Of a DNA stretch of 64,000 bases, positions 37,586 to 60,992 are shown one piece after another. The notes below the pieces were generated by a model, which was not told the origin of the DNA, searched no databases, and saw only the letters and a list, made by a program, of their open reading frames with translations. The stretch lies in assembly GCA_949292375.1 (NCBI GenBank), contig CASEZG010000001.1, positions 131,811-195,810 on the forward strand, read 5' to 3'. The DNA is from an uncultured Pseudomonadota bacterium (lineage in GTDB: Bacteria; Pseudomonadota; Alphaproteobacteria; RF32; CAG-239). The stretch's first letter is position 1. Every line of letters begins with the position of its first letter. A program made the position numbers and the translations under genes.

Positions 37586-39070
37586 CTAGCAGCAGAGTTC
37601 TTCAATGATTTTGTTTAAAACCGCAAAGCCTTTTGATGTTGCTTTGAGGTTGTTTTTTGTTTCCGTTAAAAAGCCTTCAGAAATAAGATGTTGTAGATTT
37701 TTTGTGTTGATTGTTTCAGCAAAAGTTAAGCCGCAATTTTCAAAAAATCGTTGTTTGTTTATGCCCTGATTAAGCCGTAAACCCATAATGATTAATTCTT
37801 CAGCGCGTTCCTGTGCCGTGAGCTCTTCTATGTTTAAATGATGCGTGGTGGCATAAATTTTGCCCTCAGACATAAATCTTCCGTGGGCGGATTTGCCAAT
37901 GCCTATATAATCATCTCCTTCCCAATAAAGCAGATTATGTTTGCAAGGCAGTCCATAGTTTGAAACTTCGTATTGCGGATAGCCGTTGGTGTTAAGATAA
38001 TCGTTGGTGAAGGCATACATCTGAACAGCAGCCTCATCTTCTAAGGCACGTACGCCTTTGGCCGCAAAAACCGTACCTTCTTCAATGGTTAATTGATATA
38101 GGGAAATGTGCTTAAAACCAAAATTTGTTGCTTGTTTCAGCTCTTGTTTCCATTCTTCCAAGCTTTGCTGTGGACGGGCATAAATCAAATCCATAGAATG
38201 ATTGTCAAAGATATTTAAGACTTCATCTATGGCTTTTTGAGCTTGTTTGAGGTTATGTGTGCGGCCTAAGAATCGTAAGTCTTTGTCATTTAGAGCCTGA
38301 ACGCCTAAAGATAACCGATTGATTCCGGCAGTTTTTAGCTCATAAAACATATTTTCTCTGTCTGAGTTGGGGTTGGCTTCCAGACTAATCTCTATATCTG
38401 AACGAATCTGCCATTTTTTAGCAATGAAGTTGATGATTTTTTCTATGTTTTGCGGCTTAATCAGCGATGGTGTACCGCCGCCGAAAAAAATACTACTGAC
38501 AGTTTTATCTTGTGTGAACCGATGATAATATTCTAAGTCTTGCAAATAGCCGTCTATTATTTCTTCTTGTGCTACATCCTTTTTGACTTCCTTATAAAAG
38601 TCGCAATAAGGGCAACGAGATAGGCAAAACGGCCAGTGGATATAAACTCCGAAAGGTTTTAAAACTCGTCTGGTGGGCAACTGCTTGGGCAATCCGGTGC
38701 TCACATCCTCATGTACATTAGAGTACATTCCGGTGTTGCGCTCCGTGTCGTCCGGCGCATTTCCCTCACCAGCCGAGTTTTGGAAAGTGGAGGCGGGTAG
38801 CTGCTTGGGCAATCCGGTGCTTTTATTCTCATGTACATTAGAGTACATTCCGGTGTTGTGCTCCGTGTCGTCCGGCGCATTTCCCTCACCAGCCGAGTTT
38901 TGGAAAGTGGAGGCGGGTAACTGCTTGGGCAATCCGGTGCTTTTATTCTCATGTACATTAGAGTACATTCCGGTGTTGCGCTCCGTGTCGTCCGGCGCAT
39001 TTCCCTCACCAGCCGAGTTTTGGAAAGCGGAGGCGGGTAACTGCTTGGGCAATCCGGCATTCATATCCAC
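37586..39070 (-). CDS. hemW: Radical SAM heme chaperone HemW (HemN-like) with repeat-derived N-terminal extension
   Basis: YIHWPFCLSRCPYCDF, FFGGGTPS, EANP, RLSLGVQ, DLIYARP, SLYQLTIE, YEVSNY and HNLLYW; start codon uncertain. Confidence 0.9.
   Translation of the reverse strand: MDMNAGLPKQLPASAFQNSAGEGNAPDDTERNTGMYSNVHENKSTGLPKQLPASTFQNSAGEGNAPDDTEHNTGMYSNVHENKSTGLPKQLPASTFQNSAGEGNAPDDTERNTGMYSNVHEDVSTGLPKQLPTRRVLKPFGVYIHWPFCLSRCPYCDFYKEVKKDVAQEEIIDGYLQDLEYYHRFTQDKTVSSIFFGGGTPSLIKPQNIEKIINFIAKKWQIRSDIEISLEANPNSDRENMFYELKTAGINRLSLGVQALNDKDLRFLGRTHNLKQAQKAIDEVLNIFDNHSMDLIYARPQQSLEEWKQELKQATNFGFKHISLYQLTIEEGTVFAAKGVRALEDEAAVQMYAFTNDYLNTNGYPQYEVSNYGLPCKHNLLYWEGDDYIGIGKSAHGRFMSEGKIYATTHHLNIEELTAQERAEELIIMGLRLNQGINKQRFFENCGLTFAETINTKNLQHLISEGFLTETKNNLKATSKGFAVLNKIIEELCC
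38657..39057. repeat. RPE-1-like palindromic element amplified as a 120-bp tandem array (3 units plus a partial)
   Basis: Near-identical units start at 38681, 38801 and 38921 with a partial at 39041; one complete palindrome spans 38657-38786. Confidence 0.92.
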
Positions 39071-39079
39071 GACCTATGT

Positions 39080-40390
39080 TTATAAAATGAACTTGGATAA
39101 ATCAGAGGCTTCGGTATATTTTGCCAGTTTTTCCTCAACCATCTGCGCGGTTATTACTTCTTTTTCACCACTGCGGTCAGATGCCGTATAACTGATATCT
39201 TCCAGCAAAATTTCCAGAACCGTATGTAATCTTCTTGCTCCGATGTTTTCGACATTTTCATTGATGGCAACGGCAATGTCTGCAATTTTATCAATAGCTT
39301 CTTTTTCAAATTCTAAATCAAAATTTTCGGTCTTCATCAAGGCGACATATTGTTCTATCAAATTTGCTTCCGGCTCGGTTAAGATACGTACAAAGTCCTC
39401 ATGTGTTAAGGCTTTTAGTTCAACACGTATCGGCAAGCGTCCTTGAAGTTCCGGCAATAAATCTGAAGGTTTGGAAAGATGAAATGCACCGGAGCAGATA
39501 AACAAGATATGGTCAGTTTTAACCATACCGTATTTAGTGCTTACGGTTGTTCCCTCAATCAGCGGCAAGAGGTCTCTTTGGACGCCTTCGCGTGAAACAT
39601 CGCTGCCACGGCGGTCATCTTTGCCGGCAATCTTATCTATCTCATCAATAAAGACTATGCCATCATTTTCTACGGTTTTGATGGCTGTTTGAATAATAGT
39701 ATCATTATCCAAAAGTTTGTCACATTCTTCTTCCATCAAAACTTTGTAGGCATCGCCAACCGTCATCTTACGTGTTTTATATTTGTCGCCGAATGGTTTG
39801 CCTAATAAATCTCCTAAATTTAGCATTCCCATTTGTGCGCCGGGCATTCCCGGAATATCTATGGTCGGCATAGAGGGGTTGCTGTTATCGATAACCGCAA
39901 TTTCAATTTCTCGGTCATTGAGCTGATTTTCTCTTAAGAGTTTGCGGAACTTTTCTTTAGTTTCTTCTCTTGCCGATGCTCCGACCAAGGCCTCCAAAAC
40001 TCTTTCTTCTGCGCCGATTTCGGCTTTGGCGGCAACACTTTTGCGCAAGTCTTTTTTGGTGGAAGCAATGGCGATTTCTACCAAATCGCGGATGATGGAT
40101 TCAACATCTCGTCCAACATAGCCGATTTCGGTGAATTTTGTGGCCTCTACTTTGATAAAAGGTGCTTTTGCCAGTTTTGCCAATCGGCGAGAGATTTCGG
40201 TCTTGCCGACACCCGTTGGTCCGACCATTAAGATATTTTTGGGTACAATCTCTTCGCGCAAATGTTCGGAAACCTGCATTCTTCTCCAACGATTTCTCAA
40301 AGCAATTGCAACGGCTTTTTTGGCTTCGTTTTGACCGACAATAAAACGGTCCAGTTCTGATACAATCTCTCTTGGGCTGAAATTGGCCAT
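39080..40390 (-). CDS. hslU: ATP-dependent protease ATPase HslU
   Basis: [40 protein letters not shown] and NIGARRL. Confidence 0.97.
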
Positions 40391-40391
40391 T

Positions 40392-40916
40392 TTAATCTAC
40401 CTTTTCAATAATTACGTTGTGGTTGGTGTATACGTCAATGTCGCCGGCAATCTTCATTGCTTTATGGGCGATATCTTCCAGACTTAATCCGTTAATGTCA
40501 TATAGGGCCTTGGCTGCGGCCATGGCATAGTTGCCGCCTGACCCGATGCCGATTATTCCGTCGTCAGGTTCCATTACTTCGCCCGTGCCGGAGATGACCA
40601 GTGAAACATCTTTGTCTGCAACAATCATAAAGGCTTGGAGTTGTCTTAAATATTTATCCATCCTCCAGTCTTTAGCCAGCTCGACAGCTGCTCGTTTGAG
40701 TTGGTTGGCATGCTTTTCAAGTTTGCTTTCCAATCTTTCTATCAGGGTTATGCCATCTGCGGCGGCTCCGGCAAATCCGGCAATGATATTGCCGTTGCCG
40801 ATGCGGCGGACTTTTACGGATTTTGACTTGAAAATGACGGCTTCTCCTAATGTGGCTTGTCCGTCTCCGGCCATGACAACTTCGTTGCCTTTGCGAATGC
40901 ATAAAATTGTGGTCAT
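40392..40916 (-). CDS. hslV: ATP-dependent protease subunit HslV
   Basis: N-terminal TTI, AGDGQ, GFAG and GIGSGG. Confidence 0.96.
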
Positions 40917-41021: not shown

Positions 41022-43277
41022 TTATTTGCGGTCTTTGGCATCCATAACAGCCGGATCTTTCGGTCCGCTGTTTTTCAGAATAGCCTCTGTCAGCGGTTTG
41101 TATTTTTGCCATGGGCTTTTTTCCGTGAAGGCTTTGCCGCAGATGGATAAACCAACAGAGCGTAAAGCCGTTTCGGTCGGGATAAATAAGTCCGGACTAT
41201 CATCGGTCTTTTTACCCTGTGTTGCAAAGCCGTTGATGGTTCCGTGCTCATCAATCAAAGCTCCGCCGATGGTTACGGTTTGAACAAAGGTATCAATGAT
41301 AATCTCTGCACCTTTTTCTTCCGAGTAGCGATAGCCGCTGACCGTTCCGGCGTTGTCTAAATAGCCTTCGCCGTTTTCAAAGCTGCCTTCAATGTCTAAC
41401 AATCCCAGAGCCAAGAAACCGCTCTTGCCGACGTCAGGCAAATCAAGGTTGAGAGAAAGCGGGGTATATTTGGTCTTTTCATCCAAGACTAACAGAGCCG
41501 TGTTTTTGCTTGGGTTGATGCGGAAGGCCGTTGCTTTCAGTTTGCCACCGTTGATTGTTTCAAGATTATATCTGTTGTTGTCCTTAACAATGAGGTCAGC
41601 TGAGGTCAAAACAAATTGTTCGGAAACAATCAAACCTGCGCCTTTTTTGCCGTTGGCATTGGTGACGCTGACAACAGAAGCTCTGACTTTATACAGATTT
41701 TCCGGCGTTAGTTTTTCGTAAGGTTCTCTGTCAATGATGCAAAGCGAGTTTCCGCTGGCAAAGAAGGCCTCTTCAGCGGCTTCTCTTTTATCTGAGTCTA
41801 TGTCAATCCAGGAATCGTCAACGATAGCCACGGTGTTGCTTTCTTCTGCGGAATGTTCTGTTATGCCTGAGGCTTCAACAATATCAATTTGTTTCTCTTC
41901 AATGCTTTCTTCTGCCGGAGGCATGATGAGAGTTTGTGTTCCGATTTCCGGCAGCATTTTGGTTTCTCCGCCATTGGAGATAACGCCGGAATCTTCAATG
42001 ATTTCGGTTACGGGTTCTTCCACAACATCTACGGTATCCAACATTACAATGTCAGTCGGAACTTCAGTTATAGTCTGGATTTCATCATAAACCTGAACGG
42101 AATCGTCAGCGGGGATTTCCAGAACTTCTTGAACAACGGGAACCATTTGGCACATTTGTATGGGTTGACCGTTTTCATCAAATTGTCCGGGGATCATGGA
42201 GCAAATATTGTAATTTTCCTCCATCGGAACGGCGGCTTGTTCGGTTAATTCCTGCAAAGTGTTAAACTCGGAGGCTTCCGCTTTCTTTATTTCTGGCTCA
42301 AATTTACATTTAATCGGGTCAGCAATTCTTTCCGCTTCTATCAGAGCCAGACGTTCCGCTTCGTGTTCGTCAGGGTGGACACGCGTTGCCAATTGCTTTT
42401 CAAATCCGGGGAGATTACGCAAGTTTGATACGGCATCGGCAAAAGCTTTTTCAACCAAACGTATTTCGGCGTTATATTCTCCTTCGTTGACTTCACCATA
42501 GCCTGTTGATGTCCCTTTCCAATAGACATTGGTTTTGGTTATGTCCATTAATCTCCAAGTAACGGTCATTTCCGAAGAACCCGTGCGGCGGTCTTCTTTT
42601 TGAGAATCGTCCCAGTCATATTCATCGCAAAGATTCATATAATAATCGGTTATTTCGGCGGTTAAAATATATTCCGGCAGAGGAGAGGGGTTGGTTTCAA
42701 GACACAAGCTTGAGGGCATTTTAACAATCGGATAGCAGTTGCCGACAATCTGGTTGAATATGGGAATAAACTGCATATCTTTTTGCATAATGCGACCTTG
42801 ATTCAAGATGGCGTCTTTTTCAAAACGACGGCAACCGAAAATGCGAAAACGATATTGTCCGAGCTTGGTCGAATAAGGGGCATATTTTTTGCCTTTTTTG
42901 ATGCGGAAGTCTACATATTCAAGGCTAATCGGAGCAAAATTTTTGCAGTCTCGGTAAACAGATTTATAGATTTCGTCATCGTAGGCTACTTCATAATTTT
43001 TTACATTCGGCTTTTTTTGTTCGCAGTTGACGCATTTTGTGGTCGGACAACTGACGCAACTTCCTCCCGGAAAAATGCTGCCGTCTTTGTCTTTGGGGTT
43101 GCAAGAGGTGCATTCTCCGCCGGGGAAAATACTGCCGTCTTTTGATGAATTTGCTTCTTCAGGCTTGAAAAAACTTCTGACATTGGCTGATGCCATATTT
43201 TCGTTGCTTATGGCAAAGATGCCACATCCTAATGCGGCTAAAAAGAAAAATGATTTAACAGCCTGTTGAATTTTCAT
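41022..43277 (-). CDS. Exported Cys-rich protein with a C-terminal degenerate trypsin-like domain
   Basis: Signal peptide; SVVSV...GAGLIV...VLTSADL...TALLVL...TIGGALIDEHGTING follows the trypsin-like layout. Confidence 0.7.
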   Translation of the reverse strand: MKIQQAVKSFFFLAALGCGIFAISNENMASANVRSFFKPEEANSSKDGSIFPGGECTSCNPKDKDGSIFPGGSCVSCPTTKCVNCEQKKPNVKNYEVAYDDEIYKSVYRDCKNFAPISLEYVDFRIKKGKKYAPYSTKLGQYRFRIFGCRRFEKDAILNQGRIMQKDMQFIPIFNQIVGNCYPIVKMPSSLCLETNPSPLPEYILTAEITDYYMNLCDEYDWDDSQKEDRRTGSSEMTVTWRLMDITKTNVYWKGTSTGYGEVNEGEYNAEIRLVEKAFADAVSNLRNLPGFEKQLATRVHPDEHEAERLALIEAERIADPIKCKFEPEIKKAEASEFNTLQELTEQAAVPMEENYNICSMIPGQFDENGQPIQMCQMVPVVQEVLEIPADDSVQVYDEIQTITEVPTDIVMLDTVDVVEEPVTEIIEDSGVISNGGETKMLPEIGTQTLIMPPAEESIEEKQIDIVEASGITEHSAEESNTVAIVDDSWIDIDSDKREAAEEAFFASGNSLCIIDREPYEKLTPENLYKVRASVVSVTNANGKKGAGLIVSEQFVLTSADLIVKDNNRYNLETINGGKLKATAFRINPSKNTALLVLDEKTKYTPLSLNLDLPDVGKSGFLALGLLDIEGSFENGEGYLDNAGTVSGYRYSEEKGAEIIIDTFVQTVTIGGALIDEHGTINGFATQGKKTDDSPDLFIPTETALRSVGLSICGKAFTEKSPWQKYKPLTEAILKNSGPKDPAVMDAKDRK

Positions 43278-58719: not shown

Positions 58720-60846
58720 ATGATCGATTTTAAAGTGTGCCGCAAAGAAATGGAATGGGGCGGACGCAAGTTGGTTTTGGAAACGGGAAAAGTTGCCAGA
58801 CAAGCCGAAGGAGCTGTTTTGGTTACTTATGGTGAAACAGAGGTTTTGGCTACAGTTTGCGCCGCAAAAGAGGTTAAGGCAGATCAGGATTTCTTCCCTT
58901 TGACCGTTAATTATCAGGAAAAATATTATGCAACGGGTAAAGTTCCCGGTGGCTTTATGAAGAGAGAAGGCAAGCCTTCTGAGCGCGAAGTTTTAATCTC
59001 TCGTTTGATTGACCGTCCGATACGCCCGCTGTTTCCGGATGCTTTTAAAAATGAAGTTCAGGTTATTTGCACGGTTTTGTCTCATGATCAACAAACAGAT
59101 TCCGATATTCCGGCAATGATTGCCGCTTCGGCTGCTTTGACAATTTCGGGTATTCCGTTCTTGGGTCCGATTGGTGCGGCTAAAGTTGGTTATATTGATG
59201 GACAGTTTGTTTTGAACCCGACAATTGAGCAGATGCCGAACACAAATTTGGAGCTCTCTGTTGCCGGTACGTCTGAAGGTGTTTTGATGGTTGAATCTGA
59301 GGCTAATGAGCTTTCAGAGGAGACAATGCTTAATGCAGTTATGTTTGGTTTTGAAAGCTTCCAGCCTGTTATTAAGATGATTAAGGAACTCAAGGCCGAA
59401 GCCGGAAAACCAGACTGGGAAGCTCCTGCTTTTCCGCCGGAGTTCGATGCTTTGTATGCTCGTATCGAAAAAGAATTTATCGGTAAATATGAAGAGGCAT
59501 TTAAGGTTACAGATAAACTTAAGAGAGGCGAGTTGGTTGGACAGGCTTCGGAAGAAGTTAAAGCAACGATTGACCCCGAAAATGAGCTTGAAATGCGTTA
59601 TGTCGGGGATGCTATTGAAAAGTTGATGCATAAAGTTGTTCGTGAGAAGGTTTTGACTACGGGACACCGTATTGATGGTCGTGATACCAAGACGGTTAGA
59701 CCAATTCAGTGCGAAGTTGATGTTTTGCCTTGTGCGCATGGTTCTGCGTTGTTTACGCGTGGCGAAACTCAGGCAATGGTTGTTACAACTTTGGGTACTG
59801 GCGATGATGCTCAGGTTGTTGACGGCTTGATGAACGAATATAAGGAAGACTTTATGTTGAACTACAACTTCCCGCCGTTTTCGGTTGGTGAATGTGGTAG
59901 AATCGGAAGTCCCGGACGTCGCGAAATCGGTCACGGTAAGCTCGCTTGGCGCGCTATTCATCCGATGATGCCGAAAAATAAGGATACTTTCCCTTATACT
60001 GTTCGTGTTGTTTCAGAGATTATGGAATCCAATGGTTCTTCTTCAATGGCAACGGTTTGCGGTACGACAATGTCTTTGATGGCTGCAGGTGTACCGATGG
60101 AAAAACCGGTTGCAGGTATTGCTATGGGCTTGATTAAGGAAGATGATGGTCGTGTGGCTGTCTTGACCGATATTTTGGGCGATGAAGACCATTTGGGCGA
60201 TATGGACTTTAAGGTTGCCGGTACGAAGGACGGCGTAACAGCTTTGCAGATGGATATTAAAATTACATCTATCACCAAAGAGATTATGCAGACGGCCTTG
60301 GCTCAGGCGCATGAGGGTCGTATTCATATTCTGGGCGAAATGGCAAAAGCTATTGCTGAGCCTCGTCCGCATGTTTCTGACCGTGCGCCGCGCATTATTG
60401 CCATTAAGATTCCGGTTGATAAAATCCGCGAAGTTATCGGTTCCGGTGGTAAGGTTATTCGTGAAATTACCGAAAAGACCAATACCAAAATTGATATTGC
60501 TGATGATGGTGTTATCAAGATTGCTTCAATCAAGAAAGAAGACGGTGAAGCCGCTTTGGATTGGATTATGGGTATTGTTGCCGAGCCGGAAGAAGGTAAG
60601 ATTTACCATGGCGTGATTACCAAGATTATGGACTTTGGTGCTTTTGTACGCTTCCTCGGAACAACCGAAGGTCTGGTTCATATTTCAGAAGTTAAGAACG
60701 AGCGTATTGCTTCTGTTTCTGACTTCTATAAAGAAGGTGATGCTATCTGGGTTAAGTGCTTGGGTACGGATAACCGTGGTAAGGTTAAACTTTCAGCAAA
60801 AAGGGTTAATCAGGAAACCGGTGAGGATTTGGAAAAGCACGAATAA
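58720..60846 (+). CDS. pnp: Polyribonucleotide nucleotidyltransferase
   Basis: [51 protein letters not shown], then KH and S1 domains. Confidence 0.97.
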
Positions 60847-60992
60847 TTGGTGATTAATACAGATTTTGCGGGTTGCTGACATCCTCACGTACTTCTGTGT
60901 ACGCTCCGGTGTCAGCCCCCTGAAATCTTATTACTCCCCTAATTCTTCGTGCTTTTCTTTGACGCGGAATTGGTGATTAATACAGATTTTGC
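60832..60992. repeat. RPE-like 126-bp palindrome overlapping the pnp stop, plus a 25-bp partial second copy
   Basis: gaaaagcacgaa/ttcgtgcttttc ends; core catcctcacgtac-ttctgt-gtacgctccggtg; aattggtgattaatacagattttgc at 60845 and 60968. Confidence 0.85.

What the first reader, a model, noticed from the sequence alone, without database searches (positions are those of the whole stretch)
38657..39057. RPE-1-like palindromic element tandemly amplified in frame, creating a new N-terminus for HemW
Seen: three near-identical 120-bp units (40 codons) keep the hemW frame open and add roughly 135 aa before the normal YIHWPFC region. The copy at 38657-38786 is a complete imperfect palindrome (aaaactcg..ctggtg / caccag..cgagtttt) with core tca-tgtac-attaga-gtaca-ttc. 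Known, recalled from memory: Rickettsia RPE-1 inserts in frame into housekeeping genes and encodes a peptide like GDTERSTAAYxxVREDASTGLxxKLP, ending in gcgagtttxggaaag. Here the peptide is DDTERNTGMYSNVHEDVSTGLPKQLP and each unit carries gccgagttttggaaag. Inference: a protein-building selfish element occurs in a lineage that appears not to be Rickettsia (it has an FeFe-hydrogenase and glycogen synthase), with tandem amplification that I do not recall for RPE-1.
Basis: partly seen in the sequence, partly recalled or inferred. Interest (0 to 1): 0.85.

Follow-up and report, generated by a model that had tools for sequence, protein, structure and literature searches.

The report
RPE1-like hairpin repeat array in hemW
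A selfish hairpin-forming DNA element of the kind known from Rickettsia sits in frame at the start of the heme-chaperone gene hemW of a chicken-gut alphaproteobacterium and has been copied head to tail, so that related strains carry from none to five extra 40-residue blocks on the protein.

Summary
Window 38675-39057 is a 120-bp repeat, 3.2 copies, in frame on the minus strand at the 5' end of an intact hemW directly downstream of hslVU.

- **Identity:** the protein hits the RPE1 model TIGR01045 at 62.8 bits (cut-off 30). Single units score only 22.5-26.8 bits. Each unit is a strong palindrome.
- **Host:** an uncultured gut alphaproteobacterium, not Rickettsia by its record titles.
- **Spread:** the element family occurs across this bacterial family, in frame in hemW, truA, prfC, ftsY and other genes. 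Five genomes hold single copies above the RPE1 cut-off.
- **Core:** a roughly 58-nt core is 74-93% identical to over-cut-off copies in a genome of another family, not placed in the window's order.
- **Age:** the hemW insertion is old or recurrent, in at least five genera. The tandem amplification is the recent part.
- **Copy number:** close relatives carry 0, 1, 2, 3 or 5 units. A direct repeat built into the element explains expansion and contraction.
- **Translation:** no start codon lies between the element and the radical-SAM motif, so at least part of it must be translated. Translation of the whole array from the ATG after hslU is likely but unproven.
- **Assembly:** the copy number of three was not verified.

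I rate it a new variant of a known kind.

The parts
37586..39064 (-). hemW (radical SAM heme chaperone) read from the ATG at 39062-39064; 492 aa plus stop
   Evidence: ORF. TIGR00539 scores 274.6 bits (cut-off 205.4) at aa 142-468. In the AlphaFold2 model the core has pLDDT above 90. This exact 492-aa protein is in the public collection.
38675..39057 (-). Tandem array of the RPE1-like element: 120-bp period, 3.2 copies
   Evidence: TRF. RPE1 TIGR01045 matches in 3 stretches. The hemW frame has no stop across the array.
38933..39052 (-). Unit 1, farthest from the hemW core (40 codons)
   Evidence: Units parsed by the recurring right-arm segment, spaced 120, 120, 120.
38813..38932 (-). Unit 2 (40 codons)
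38693..38812 (-). Unit 3, next to the hemW core (40 codons). Together with 38657-38692 it forms the one complete palindrome.
38657..38692 (-). Last copy of the direct repeat (right-arm segment) plus the closing stem of the palindrome. Native hemW codons (PFGVYIHW) begin immediately after it.
   Evidence: Fold. Alignment with 12 other hemW-site copies, all ending before the P-F-G codons. The 0-unit alleles keep exactly this part.
39062..39064 (-). Most likely hemW start codon (ATG), 15 nt after the hslU stop codon
   Evidence: Sequence. The same ATG and upstream context occur in L034, L035 and L046. Public gene calls of the 0-, 1- and 2-unit alleles begin here: P0006, P0015, P0016, P0004, P0001.
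39080..40390 (-). hslU, directly upstream on the same strand
   Evidence: TIGR00390 scores 604.8 bits.
40392..40916 (-). hslV
   Evidence: NF003964 scores 256 bits.
60832..60990 (-). Second, intergenic-type hairpin element of a related family. It has the same GTAC-N6-GTAC central loop, its own upstream direct repeat, and stops in all frames.
   Evidence: nhmmer core hit at C1:192684-192720. Fold of -60.0 kcal/mol. Sequence. Motif match at 60884-60902.

Best explanation
The array is a palindromic, non-autonomous mobile element of the RPE1 superfamily. It was inserted in frame a few codons after the hemW start codon, at the tight hslU-hemW junction, and displaced the native N-terminus.

The element carries a copy of part of its right arm upstream of its left arm, which forms a direct repeat 120 bp apart. 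Slippage or unequal recombination between these repeats adds or removes whole 40-codon units. Close relatives therefore differ in unit number (0, 1, 2, 3, 5), and every allele stays in frame automatically.

HemW is most likely translated from the ATG 15 nt after the hslU stop. That gives an intact enzyme with a disordered N-terminal extension of about 130 residues that is tolerated rather than needed.

**Shown:** the repeat, the palindrome, the RPE1 hit, the shared DNA core, the spread in the lineage, the copy-number alleles, and the absence of any start codon between the element and the catalytic motif.

**Inferred:** the mobility mechanism, the slippage mechanism, use of the upstream ATG, and neutrality of the extension.
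For: **Repeat and palindrome:**

**RPE1 model:**
- The protein scores 62.8 bits against a cut-off of 30.
- Within the window's order, 26 of 251 genomes, G000 included, match at E<=1e-3. Five of them have single copies over the cut-off, at 31.9-42 bits.
- None of the 14 control genomes matches at that E-value.

**DNA core** (identity to the over-cut-off copy G360b):
- Own units: 42-43 of 58 positions.
- G023 copies: 39-51 of 57-59.
- G017 hemW copy: 54 of 58.

**In-frame insertions elsewhere:**
- truA, confirmed by TIGR00071 at 164.1 bits.
- prfC, an rnpA-like gene, ftsY, and an Era-like GTPase.
- By my reading of the translations, about 8 of 12 G023 copies lie in a frame that stays open across the 190 nt examined.

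**Hairpin conservation:** among 13 hemW-site copies, 34 pairs are predicted and 20 of them show changes on both sides.

**Copy-number alleles:**
- L034 has 5.2 units and L035 has 1.
- Of the 15 listed members of the 49-member cluster, lengths are 372 aa x3 (0 units), 412 aa x8 and 408 aa x1 (1 unit), 452 and 448 aa (2 units), and 492 aa (this window).

**Start codon:**
- No ATG, GTG or TTG lies between the element end and PFGVYIHWPFC.
- In 47 of the 61 family hemW loci the frame is open for fewer than 25 codons upstream of the match, my count. The native protein there is about 364 aa.
- In relatives lacking the element, hemW starts at or within 10 nt of the hslU stop. L037 has TAATG, where the stop and start codons overlap.
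- Single-copy alleles have their only start upstream of the element: ATG in G002, G633 and G444, and GTG in L036.

**Periods:** every array that TRF detected has a period divisible by 3. These are hemW 5' arrays of 120, 144 and 114 bp; truA 123; ftsY 123; the rnpA-like gene 126; and hemW-internal 123 twice.

**Structure model:** residues 1-133 have pLDDT below 50 and no secondary structure, while the core is above 90.
Against: - A single unit in this window does not reach the RPE1 cut-off (22.5-26.8 bits). Only model positions 15-39 of 48 match, so the arms are lineage-specific.
- There are no expression or peptide data. Each unit is a hairpin of about -54 kcal/mol that a ribosome would have to open.
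- Each unit holds an in-frame ATG, and the Shine-Dalgarno match before the upstream ATG is weak.
- In G458 the most upstream copy is out of frame with hemW. Arrays can therefore extend beyond the translated part.
- Substitutions among the 10 aligned units are about 11 replacement to 7 silent, by my own count. That is at most weak constraint on the peptide.
- Because 120 is divisible by 3, frame preservation among the copy-number alleles needs no selection.
- No contig of the 4 runs laid bridges the whole array, so the number three is unverified.
- No transposase, target-site duplication or transposition event was identified.
Confidence: 0.78

Rival explanations
1. The array is mostly an untranslated structured leader between hslU and hemW. 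HemW would start at an ATG, GTG or TTG inside the last unit. The upstream hairpins would act at the RNA level, like REP-type elements, protecting the hslVU message or tuning hemW expression.
For: - Each unit has an in-frame ATG, and the last unit also has an in-frame GTG and TTG.
- The hairpins are very stable, and their pairing is maintained by covariation.
- The array begins 9-15 nt after the hslU stop.
- In G458 an upstream copy is out of frame.
- The peptide is under weak constraint at best.
Against: - The frame is open from the ATG after hslU through all units in the 0-, 1-, 2-, 3- and 5-unit alleles.
- The 0-unit allele has essentially only that start.
- The internal Met is not conserved: it is V in L036 and G002. 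The upstream start is conserved.
- The three hemW 5' arrays have different periods, all divisible by 3.
- The same kind of unit is necessarily translated inside truA, ftsY and the hemW core.
- No terminator-like or promoter-like site was found in the array on the minus strand.
Confidence: 0.17
2. The three-unit array is an assembly artefact, and the real locus has one unit or a different number.
For: - In all 4 runs laid, the short-read contigs break inside the array.
- Several related arrays carry runs of N: L046, L083, L144 and L023.
- Most public alleles of the cluster have one unit.
Against: - Contigs of three runs from three studies run from the end of one unit's core through the junction into the next unit. 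These are X1 38758-38857 with 0 differences, X3 38878-38948 with 0, and X4 38811-38960 with 4. X1 may be the sample the window was assembled from.
- The three units differ from each other at several positions.
- Other assemblies give 2 and 5.2 units.
- Short-read assemblers collapse repeats more often than they expand them (general knowledge).
Confidence: 0.12
3. The likeness to RPE1 is convergent: a lineage-specific hairpin repeat that happens to encode a similar peptide, not a relative of the Rickettsia element.
For: - Single units are below the curated cut-off.
- The arms are unlike the model outside positions 15-39.
- No named Rickettsia sequence could be compared. Two plasmid searches found nothing useful.
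- G360, the genome with 101 matches, is unnamed, and its family holds only 10 genomes.
Against: - Sister copies in the same bacterial family score 31.9-42 bits alone.
- The DNA core aligns without gaps apart from the loop, at 74-93% identity to over-cut-off copies.
- Those copies share the same central GTAC-N6-GTAC loop and the same reading frame.
Confidence: 0.06

Closest known systems
Rickettsia palindromic element RPE-1 (NCBIfam TIGR01045; Ogata et al. 2000, known to me only as cited in PMC10969869 and PMC1779305)
   Same: - A palindrome of 100-150 bp found in intergenic and coding DNA.
- Inserted in frame in unrelated housekeeping genes without breaking them.
- Encodes a conserved peptide. 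The model matches here and the DNA core is shared with over-cut-off copies.
- Passages read: PMC1779305, PMC10969869, PMC4316617, PMC1458961.
   Different: - The host is a gut alphaproteobacterial MAG lineage, not Rickettsia.
- Only the core (model positions 15-39) is conserved in this window.
- The element is amplified head to tail in frame, with copy-number variation. My five literature searches and the passages read do not mention this for RPEs.
- Few copies per genome: here two coding loci plus about ten related intergenic hairpins. R. bellii is reported to have 526 (PMC1458961).
[quoted passage not shown]
   Same: A coding palindromic repeat outside the genus Rickettsia, in an alphaproteobacterium.
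   Different: Not compared at sequence level here. Wolbachia is an intracellular member of Rickettsiales. The present lineage consists of gut-metagenome genomes of about 1.3-1.9 Mb carrying the RPE1-type core itself.
MITEs and extragenic palindromes of bacteria (REP/BIME, ERIC, Correia and others; review PMC10969869)
   Same: Short, non-autonomous, hairpin-forming and dispersed. They sometimes form in-frame fusions with host ORFs.
   Different: - No cognate transposase or target-site duplication was identified here.
- The closing stems differ from copy to copy yet stay complementary.
- The element builds in-frame tandem arrays.
Coding minisatellites (VNTRs) of bacterial genes (general knowledge)
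   Same: Period divisible by three, copy number varying between close strains, and expansion or contraction by slippage.
   Different: The repeat unit here is a mobile palindromic element. The gene is a cytoplasmic housekeeping enzyme rather than a surface protein.

Membership tests
RPE1 (NCBIfam TIGR01045, palindromic element RPE1 domain) | Whole-protein score at or above the curated cut-off of 30 bits | tested here: met
   62.8 bits, E 2e-17, 3 stretches. The score is the sum of three copies.
RPE1 (NCBIfam TIGR01045, palindromic element RPE1 domain) | A single copy reaches the cut-off and matches the model end to end | tested here: not met
   The units score 26.8, 22.9 and 22.5 bits and match model positions 15-39 of 48 only. 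Copies in 5 of 251 genomes of the same order do pass alone, at 31.9-42 bits over positions 9-44 at best.
RPE1 (NCBIfam TIGR01045, palindromic element RPE1 domain) | Palindromic DNA of about 100-150 bp | tested here: met
   The 130-nt copy folds to -54.4 kcal/mol, z -6.73. Thirteen hemW-site copies fold at -45 to -68 kcal/mol, and 20 of 34 pairs covary.
RPE1 (NCBIfam TIGR01045, palindromic element RPE1 domain) | Dispersed copies in the genome, in genes (in frame) and between genes | tested here: met
   The own genome has copies in hemW and truA, plus 10 weaker core hits (E 8e-7 to 0.018) of which 9 are intergenic-type hairpins. G023 has 12 dispersed copies. Host genes in relatives are hemW, truA, prfC, ftsY, an rnpA-like gene and an Era-like gene.
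RPE1 (NCBIfam TIGR01045, palindromic element RPE1 domain) | DNA-level similarity to accepted (over-cut-off) RPE1 copies | tested here: met
   Core identity to G360b is 42-43 of 58 for the own units and 54 of 58 for the G017 hemW copy. G360 is unnamed, so the link to named Rickettsia DNA was not made.
RPE1 (NCBIfam TIGR01045, palindromic element RPE1 domain) | Host is a Rickettsia | tested here: not met
   The closest records are uncultured gut Alphaproteobacteria and Candidatus Scatocola faecigallinarum. The runs that hold the locus are mostly chicken-gut metagenomes.
HemW (TIGR00539, radical SAM heme chaperone) | Equivalog score over the cut-off, with the CxxxCxxC motif and the HemN C-terminal domain | tested here: met
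   274.6 bits against 205.4. Pfam Radical_SAM and HemN_C both match. C147, C151 and C154 are invariant in 30 sequences.
MITE in the strict sense | Terminal inverted repeats with a target-site duplication and a cognate transposase somewhere | tested here: inconclusive
   Inverted arms are present. The flanking direct repeat is part of the element itself and is similar between copies, so it is not a target duplication. No transposase search was done.
REP-like RNA stabiliser or intrinsic terminator | Extragenic position, with a terminator-like stem and U-tract after a gene | tested here: not met
   No terminator-like site was found in 38657-39070 on either strand. The array is in frame with hemW. 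No RNA data were available.

The most novel reading that the evidence does not exclude
RPE1 may not be a Rickettsia peculiarity. It may instead be a coding hairpin element shared by, or moving between, distant alphaproteobacterial lineages, including extracellular gut commensals.

- Its roughly 58-nt core is kept at up to 93% identity between genomes of different families, the second not placed in the window's order.
- Its stem is maintained by paired changes.
- Its built-in direct repeat makes it a generator of in-frame protein minisatellites (0-5 units at hemW; 2-3 units at truA, ftsY and inside hemW in other genera).

That would be a general way of adding and resizing protein segments in housekeeping enzymes. 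The retention of the hemW and truA insertions across genera could mean the peptide or the hairpin has acquired a function.
Probability: 0.35. Interest if true: 0.8.

Novelty: new variant of a known kind. Interest (0 to 1): 0.62.

Why it matters
RPEs are the textbook case of selfish DNA that ends up inside proteins, and the papers I read treat them as a feature of Rickettsia genomes.

This locus places an RPE1-type core in a gut-commensal lineage. It is inserted at the same sites in several genera and expands and contracts in 40-codon steps inside an essential-type enzyme gene.

- That gives a natural series of alleles (0 to 5 units). With it one can test whether such peptides are translated, tolerated or useful, and how palindromic elements amplify.
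- It also raises the question of whether the element is ancient in Alphaproteobacteria or transferred between lineages.
- Practically, these arrays break short-read assemblies (contig ends, N-gaps) and mislead start-codon calling.

Tried and rejected
- **Rfam:** no family matched anywhere in the window at gathering score.
- **Plasmid collection with the unit:** only chance hits at E about 4, none in Rickettsia.
- **Plasmid collection with a G360 copy:** no match. No named Rickettsia DNA could therefore be brought in.
- **The search for homologous proteins on residues 1-135:** only 2 proteins passed, because E-values are scaled to 5.8 billion sequences.
- **Metagenome scan for the unit-unit junction:** 0 matches.
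- **Reads:**
  - All four runs are contigs, and none bridges the whole array.
  - Parts of the array have no cover in single runs.
  - Contig depths are higher on repeat pieces than on flanks, but by the tool's own rules depth is not a copy number. I draw nothing from either.
  - X5 is labelled RNA-Seq but is probably DNA, so there is no expression evidence.
- **Plus-strand ORF 38673..39191 (172 aa):** it hits Pfam C2-set_3 at 30 bits against a cut-off of 27. I reject it as the mirror reading of a palindromic repeat, with the score inflated by the repeats.
- **Minus-strand ORF 38701..39060 in another frame:** it is interrupted by 3 stops when the whole array is read.
- **Promoter and terminator scan:** nothing in the array.
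- **Codon-position counts among units:** too weak to decide coding.
- **G360 as a Rickettsia:** I first assumed this. Its family has only 10 genomes in the collection and carries no name, so I dropped the assumption.
- **Single ancient insertion at hemW:** the tree allows it. However, the G500 hemW copy has truA-type arms, so recurrent insertion or conversion is not excluded.
- **Literature and earlier notes:** PMC186582 (Ogata 2002) is not held. Earlier scan notes by place and by sequence returned nothing.
Full report
**What is there**

Window 38675-39057 is a tandem repeat of period 120 with 3.2 copies, 96% matches and no indels. It lies on the minus strand inside an ORF that runs from 39070 to 37586 (494 aa from a GTG). 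An ATG lies two codons further in, at 39064.

Residues 142-468 are an intact HemW:
- TIGR00539 scores 274.6 bits against a cut-off of 205.4.
- Pfam Radical_SAM and HemN_C both match.
- The three cluster cysteines are invariant in 30 homologues.

hslU ends at 39080 and hslV lies before it on the same strand. The copy next to the hemW core (38657-38786) is a long imperfect palindrome: -54.4 kcal/mol, z -6.73, with 0 of 200 shuffles as stable. Across the array only two of the six frames lack stops, the hemW frame and one plus-strand frame.

**What the unit is**

The NCBIfam model for the RPE1 palindromic-element domain (TIGR01045) hits the protein at E 2e-17 and 62.8 bits, against a cut-off of 30, in three stretches. 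Taken singly, the units score 26.8, 22.9 and 22.5 bits and match only model positions 15-39 of 48. In this window, therefore, only the core is RPE1-like.

Membership is carried by relatives. Of 251 genomes of the same order, G000 included, 26 have a match at E<=1e-3 (f1 25 of 249, f2 0 of 1, plus G000). Five have single copies over the cut-off: G470 42.0, G458 41.9, G633 41.4, G555 33.5 and G440 31.9 bits. None of the 14 control genomes matches.

At DNA level a core of about 58 nt around a GTAC-N6-GTAC loop aligns between four sets of copies:
- the window's own units;
- copies in other genes and genera of the family;
- the copies of G360;
- the copies of G051.

G360 is an unnamed 0.9-Mb genome of another family (kinship 'same class', so not placed in the window's order) with 101 matches, most of them over the cut-off. 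Identity to copy G360b is 42-43 of 58 for the own units, 39-51 of 57-59 for twelve copies in G023, and 54 of 58 for the hemW copy of G017. I could not compare named Rickettsia DNA.

**Whose genome**

The hemW core finds its closest relatives in records titled uncultured Alphaproteobacteria from human, ruminant, horse and bird gut, and in Candidatus Scatocola faecigallinarum. The neighbouring genes match the alphaproteobacterial AddA and AddB equivalogs.

Twenty of the 24 runs listed hold at least part of the locus. Nine of the 17 strong holders are labelled chicken gut metagenome, and the strong holders come from seven studies. The assembly is 1.44 Mb in 38 contigs.

In a sample of 401 genomes of the class, 7 including G000 had a match at E<=1e-3, and only G360 was over the cut-off. 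One of the seven, G065, is flagged unpublished. The only claim resting on it is that its family (f42) had a sub-cut-off match.

**The element family in this lineage**

In the window's own genome a second coding site lies 9 kb beyond the window. It is a truA ORF (TIGR00071, 164.1 bits) carrying an in-frame RPE1-like block. The end of contig C11 overlaps it and adds a second, diverged tandem copy, so the assembly broke inside that array.

A profile of the core finds the three hemW units and the truA copy at E<=2e-13, plus ten weaker hits at E 8e-7 to 0.018. One of the ten is the C11-end truA copy. The other nine are 120-130-nt hairpins with stops in all frames, the intergenic type. One of them lies in the window at about 60832-60990.

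In relatives the element sits in frame in these genes:

| Host gene | Genomes |
|---|---|
| hemW start | G016, G017, G440, G444, G458, G470, G500, G633, and the window's genus |
| truA | G428, G445, G505, G553, G555 |
| prfC | G007 |
| ftsY | G604 |
| rnpA-like ORF | G020 |
| Era-like GTPase | G023 |

By my reading of the translations, about 8 of the 12 G023 copies lie in a frame that stays open through 190 nt.

A different palindromic element, with period 123, is inserted and duplicated inside the hemW core of another clade: L044, L045, L049, L082, L083, L087 and L092.

**Anatomy and copy number**

Read in the coding direction, the locus is as follows:
1. The hslU stop codon.
2. 15 nt of spacer.
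3. ATG AAT GCC.
4. A segment identical to part of the element's right arm.
5. Three 120-bp units, each ending in that same segment.
6. The closing stem.
7. The native codons PFGVYIHW.

The element is thus flanked by a direct repeat 120 bp apart. The intergenic hairpins of the genome have the same build, and their upstream repeats are similar between copies. The repeat therefore belongs to the element and is not a target duplication.

Alleles found in close relatives:

| Units | Where seen |
|---|---|
| 5.2 | L034 |
| 1 | L035 |
| at least 2, with a run of N | L046 |
| 2 | P0001 |

G004, G001 and G005 have the same ORF lengths as L034, L035 and L046. I count each pair once.

The window's 492-aa protein belongs to a 49-member cluster, of which 15 members were listed:

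| Length (aa) | Members listed | Units |
|---|---|---|
| 372 | 3 | 0 (they read MNAGLPKQLPARRVLKPFGVYIHW..., or the same with PT for PA) |
| 412 | 8 | 1 |
| 408 | 1 | 1 |
| 452 | 1 | 2 |
| 448 | 1 | 2 |
| 492 | 1 (this window) | 3 |

The 0-unit form keeps one copy of the direct repeat and the closing stem. That is what recombination between the repeats would leave.

**Is the array real?**

Only contigs were available, and in all four runs laid they break inside the array. None bridges it. Contigs of three runs from three studies do run from the end of one unit's core through the junction into the next unit:
- X1, 38758-38857, 0 differences.
- X3, 38878-38948, 0 differences.
- X4, 38811-38960, 4 differences.

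X1 may be the sample the window was assembled from. At least two tandem units therefore exist outside this assembly. The number three rests on this assembly alone.

**Is it translated?**

There is no ATG, GTG or TTG between the end of the element and the PFGVYIHWPFC motif. An active HemW must therefore begin inside or before the element.

Evidence from relatives without the element:
- In 47 of the 61 family hemW loci the frame is open for fewer than 25 codons upstream of the match, my count. The native protein is about 364 aa.
- Their ATG sits on or within 10 nt of the hslU stop. In L037-L039 the two codons overlap as TAATG.

Evidence for the upstream ATG in this window:
- It is 15 nt after the hslU stop, with the same context in L034, L035 and L046.
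- Public gene calls for the 0-, 1- and 2-unit alleles begin there, namely P0006, P0015, P0016, P0004 and P0001.
- Single-unit alleles of more distant relatives have their start before the whole element: ATG in G002, G633 and G444, and GTG in L036.
- The Met inside the unit is not conserved.
- All arrays found by TRF have periods divisible by three. These are 120, 144 and 114 bp at the hemW start in three genera; 123 in truA; 123 in ftsY; 126 in the rnpA-like ORF; and 123 twice inside hemW.

Evidence against:
- There are no expression data.
- Each hairpin is very stable.
- The Shine-Dalgarno match is weak.
- G458 has an out-of-frame upstream copy.
- The replacement-to-silent ratio among units is about 11 to 7 by my own count.

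The AlphaFold2 model gives pLDDT below 50 and no secondary structure for residues 1-133, and above 90 for most of the enzyme. Few aligned rows cover the extension, so this is weak evidence.

I put translation of at least the last part of the element at about 0.9, and translation of the whole array at about 0.65.

**History**

On a tree of the HemW core (72 rows, extension excluded, quick method), all 14 element-bearing genes fall in one set of 22 rows with SH-aLRT support of 87. The label needs only 2 changes, against a mean of 13 in shuffles, and 0 of 500 shuffles were as low. The other 8 rows of that set are the clade with the internal element.

All 13 hemW-site copies that I aligned end just before the P-F-G (or corresponding) codons. 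Their outer stems differ between genera but stay complementary: of 34 predicted pairs, 20 show changes on both sides.

The G500 copy has the arms of the truA-type element. One old insertion with concerted change of the arms, and repeated insertion or conversion at a permissive site, both remain open. Either way the insertion predates this genome. The amplification to several near-identical units (93-96% alike) is recent.

**How it most likely works**

A hairpin element lands a few codons into hemW, at a junction where translation is coupled to hslU. The insertion survives because it keeps the frame and leaves the radical-SAM fold untouched. The element's own direct repeat then lets replication slippage or unequal exchange add and remove 40-codon units.

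The copy-specific but complementary closing stems seen in G023 and at hemW fit templated correction within quasi-palindromes (established mutational mechanism, recalled). This is inference.

**Compared with what is known**

The passages I read cover the following:
- RPEs are 100-150-bp elements abundant in intergenic and coding regions of Rickettsia (PMC1779305).
- They insert without disrupting ORFs (PMC4316617).
- R. bellii has 526 copies, 53 of them in genes (PMC1458961).
- They made 44 insertions in R. conorii genes (review PMC10969869).
- Orientia repeats are unrelated to RPEs (PMC2575882).
- Wolbachia has its own palindromic element (PMC4898810).

Five full-text searches listed no paper on RPE1 in gut Alphaproteobacteria or on tandem in-frame RPE arrays. 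Subscription papers and supplements were not searchable, and the 2002 Genome Research paper is not held.

This scan has noted RPE-like behaviour in many other genomes, including an RPE-1 match in Cardinium (unchecked by me). It is therefore not the first sighting of RPE1 outside Rickettsia within the scan.

I class it as a new variant of a known kind: the RPE1 core in a new host lineage, with in-frame tandem amplification and copy-number polymorphism.

Noticed in passing
window 60832-60990 (minus strand): An intergenic hairpin element (-60 kcal/mol) with the same GTAC-N6-GTAC centre as the hemW units, its own upstream direct repeat, and stops in all frames. Eight more of this type lie elsewhere in the genome (C9, C31, C11 x2, C21, C7, C16, C17).
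   Followed up: partly
own genome C1:205119-205176 and the 3' end of C11 (L005; outside the window): truA carries two diverged tandem RPE1-like blocks in frame between its N-terminal strand and the GRTDAGVHA motif. The assembly breaks inside this array: the ends of C11 and C1 overlap by 24 residues of translation. The same site is occupied in G428, G505, G555, G445 (3 copies) and G553 (2 copies).
   Followed up: partly
L044, L045, L049, L082, L083, L087, L092 (hemW of another clade), e.g. L087:3805-4086: A different palindromic element (period 123, 1-2.3 copies, also with a GTAC...GTAC centre) is inserted and duplicated in frame inside the hemW core after GRFCFSGFKG. L083 has a run of N there. 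L042 appears to hold only a remnant.
   Followed up: partly
G023 loci L123-L134: Twelve dispersed copies share a near-identical core, but the outermost 6-10 bp of the closing stem differ from copy to copy while staying complementary. In the Era-like gene (L123) the right closing stem overlaps the conserved S-G-F codons. Whether the stem is made at insertion or corrected later is unexplained.
   Followed up: partly
L037, L038, L039 (hemW loci without the element): The hslU stop codon and the hemW start codon overlap (TAATG). This suggests translational coupling of hslU and hemW in this bacterial family, and it is exactly the junction where the element sits in the window.
   Followed up: no
L040 / L136 (G006, same genus): hemW has a 30-residue N-terminal extension without the RPE1 core (MKSKTRIPAAEQPLSRAGTDGKANAGNVPFGIYIHW). 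It may be a decayed or internally deleted element.
   Followed up: no
window 38673-39191 (+): The plus-strand mirror ORF of the array (172 aa) passes the Pfam gathering score for an immunoglobulin-type domain (C2-set_3, 30 bits against 27). This is a false positive produced by the repeat.
   Followed up: yes
window 41022-43277 (-): A 751-aa ORF next to hslV has no NCBIfam match at E<=1e-5. Its sequence has a signal-peptide-like start and cysteine-rich short repeats.
   Followed up: no
G087, G257 (family f63), G332 (f169): L116, L117, L118, L120: Long hairpins (-43 to -71 kcal/mol) with sub-cut-off RPE1 matches over nearly the whole model (positions 1-48) but a different centre (GTAT...ATAC), some with stop codons. 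They look like more distant relatives of the element in other alphaproteobacterial families.
   Followed up: no
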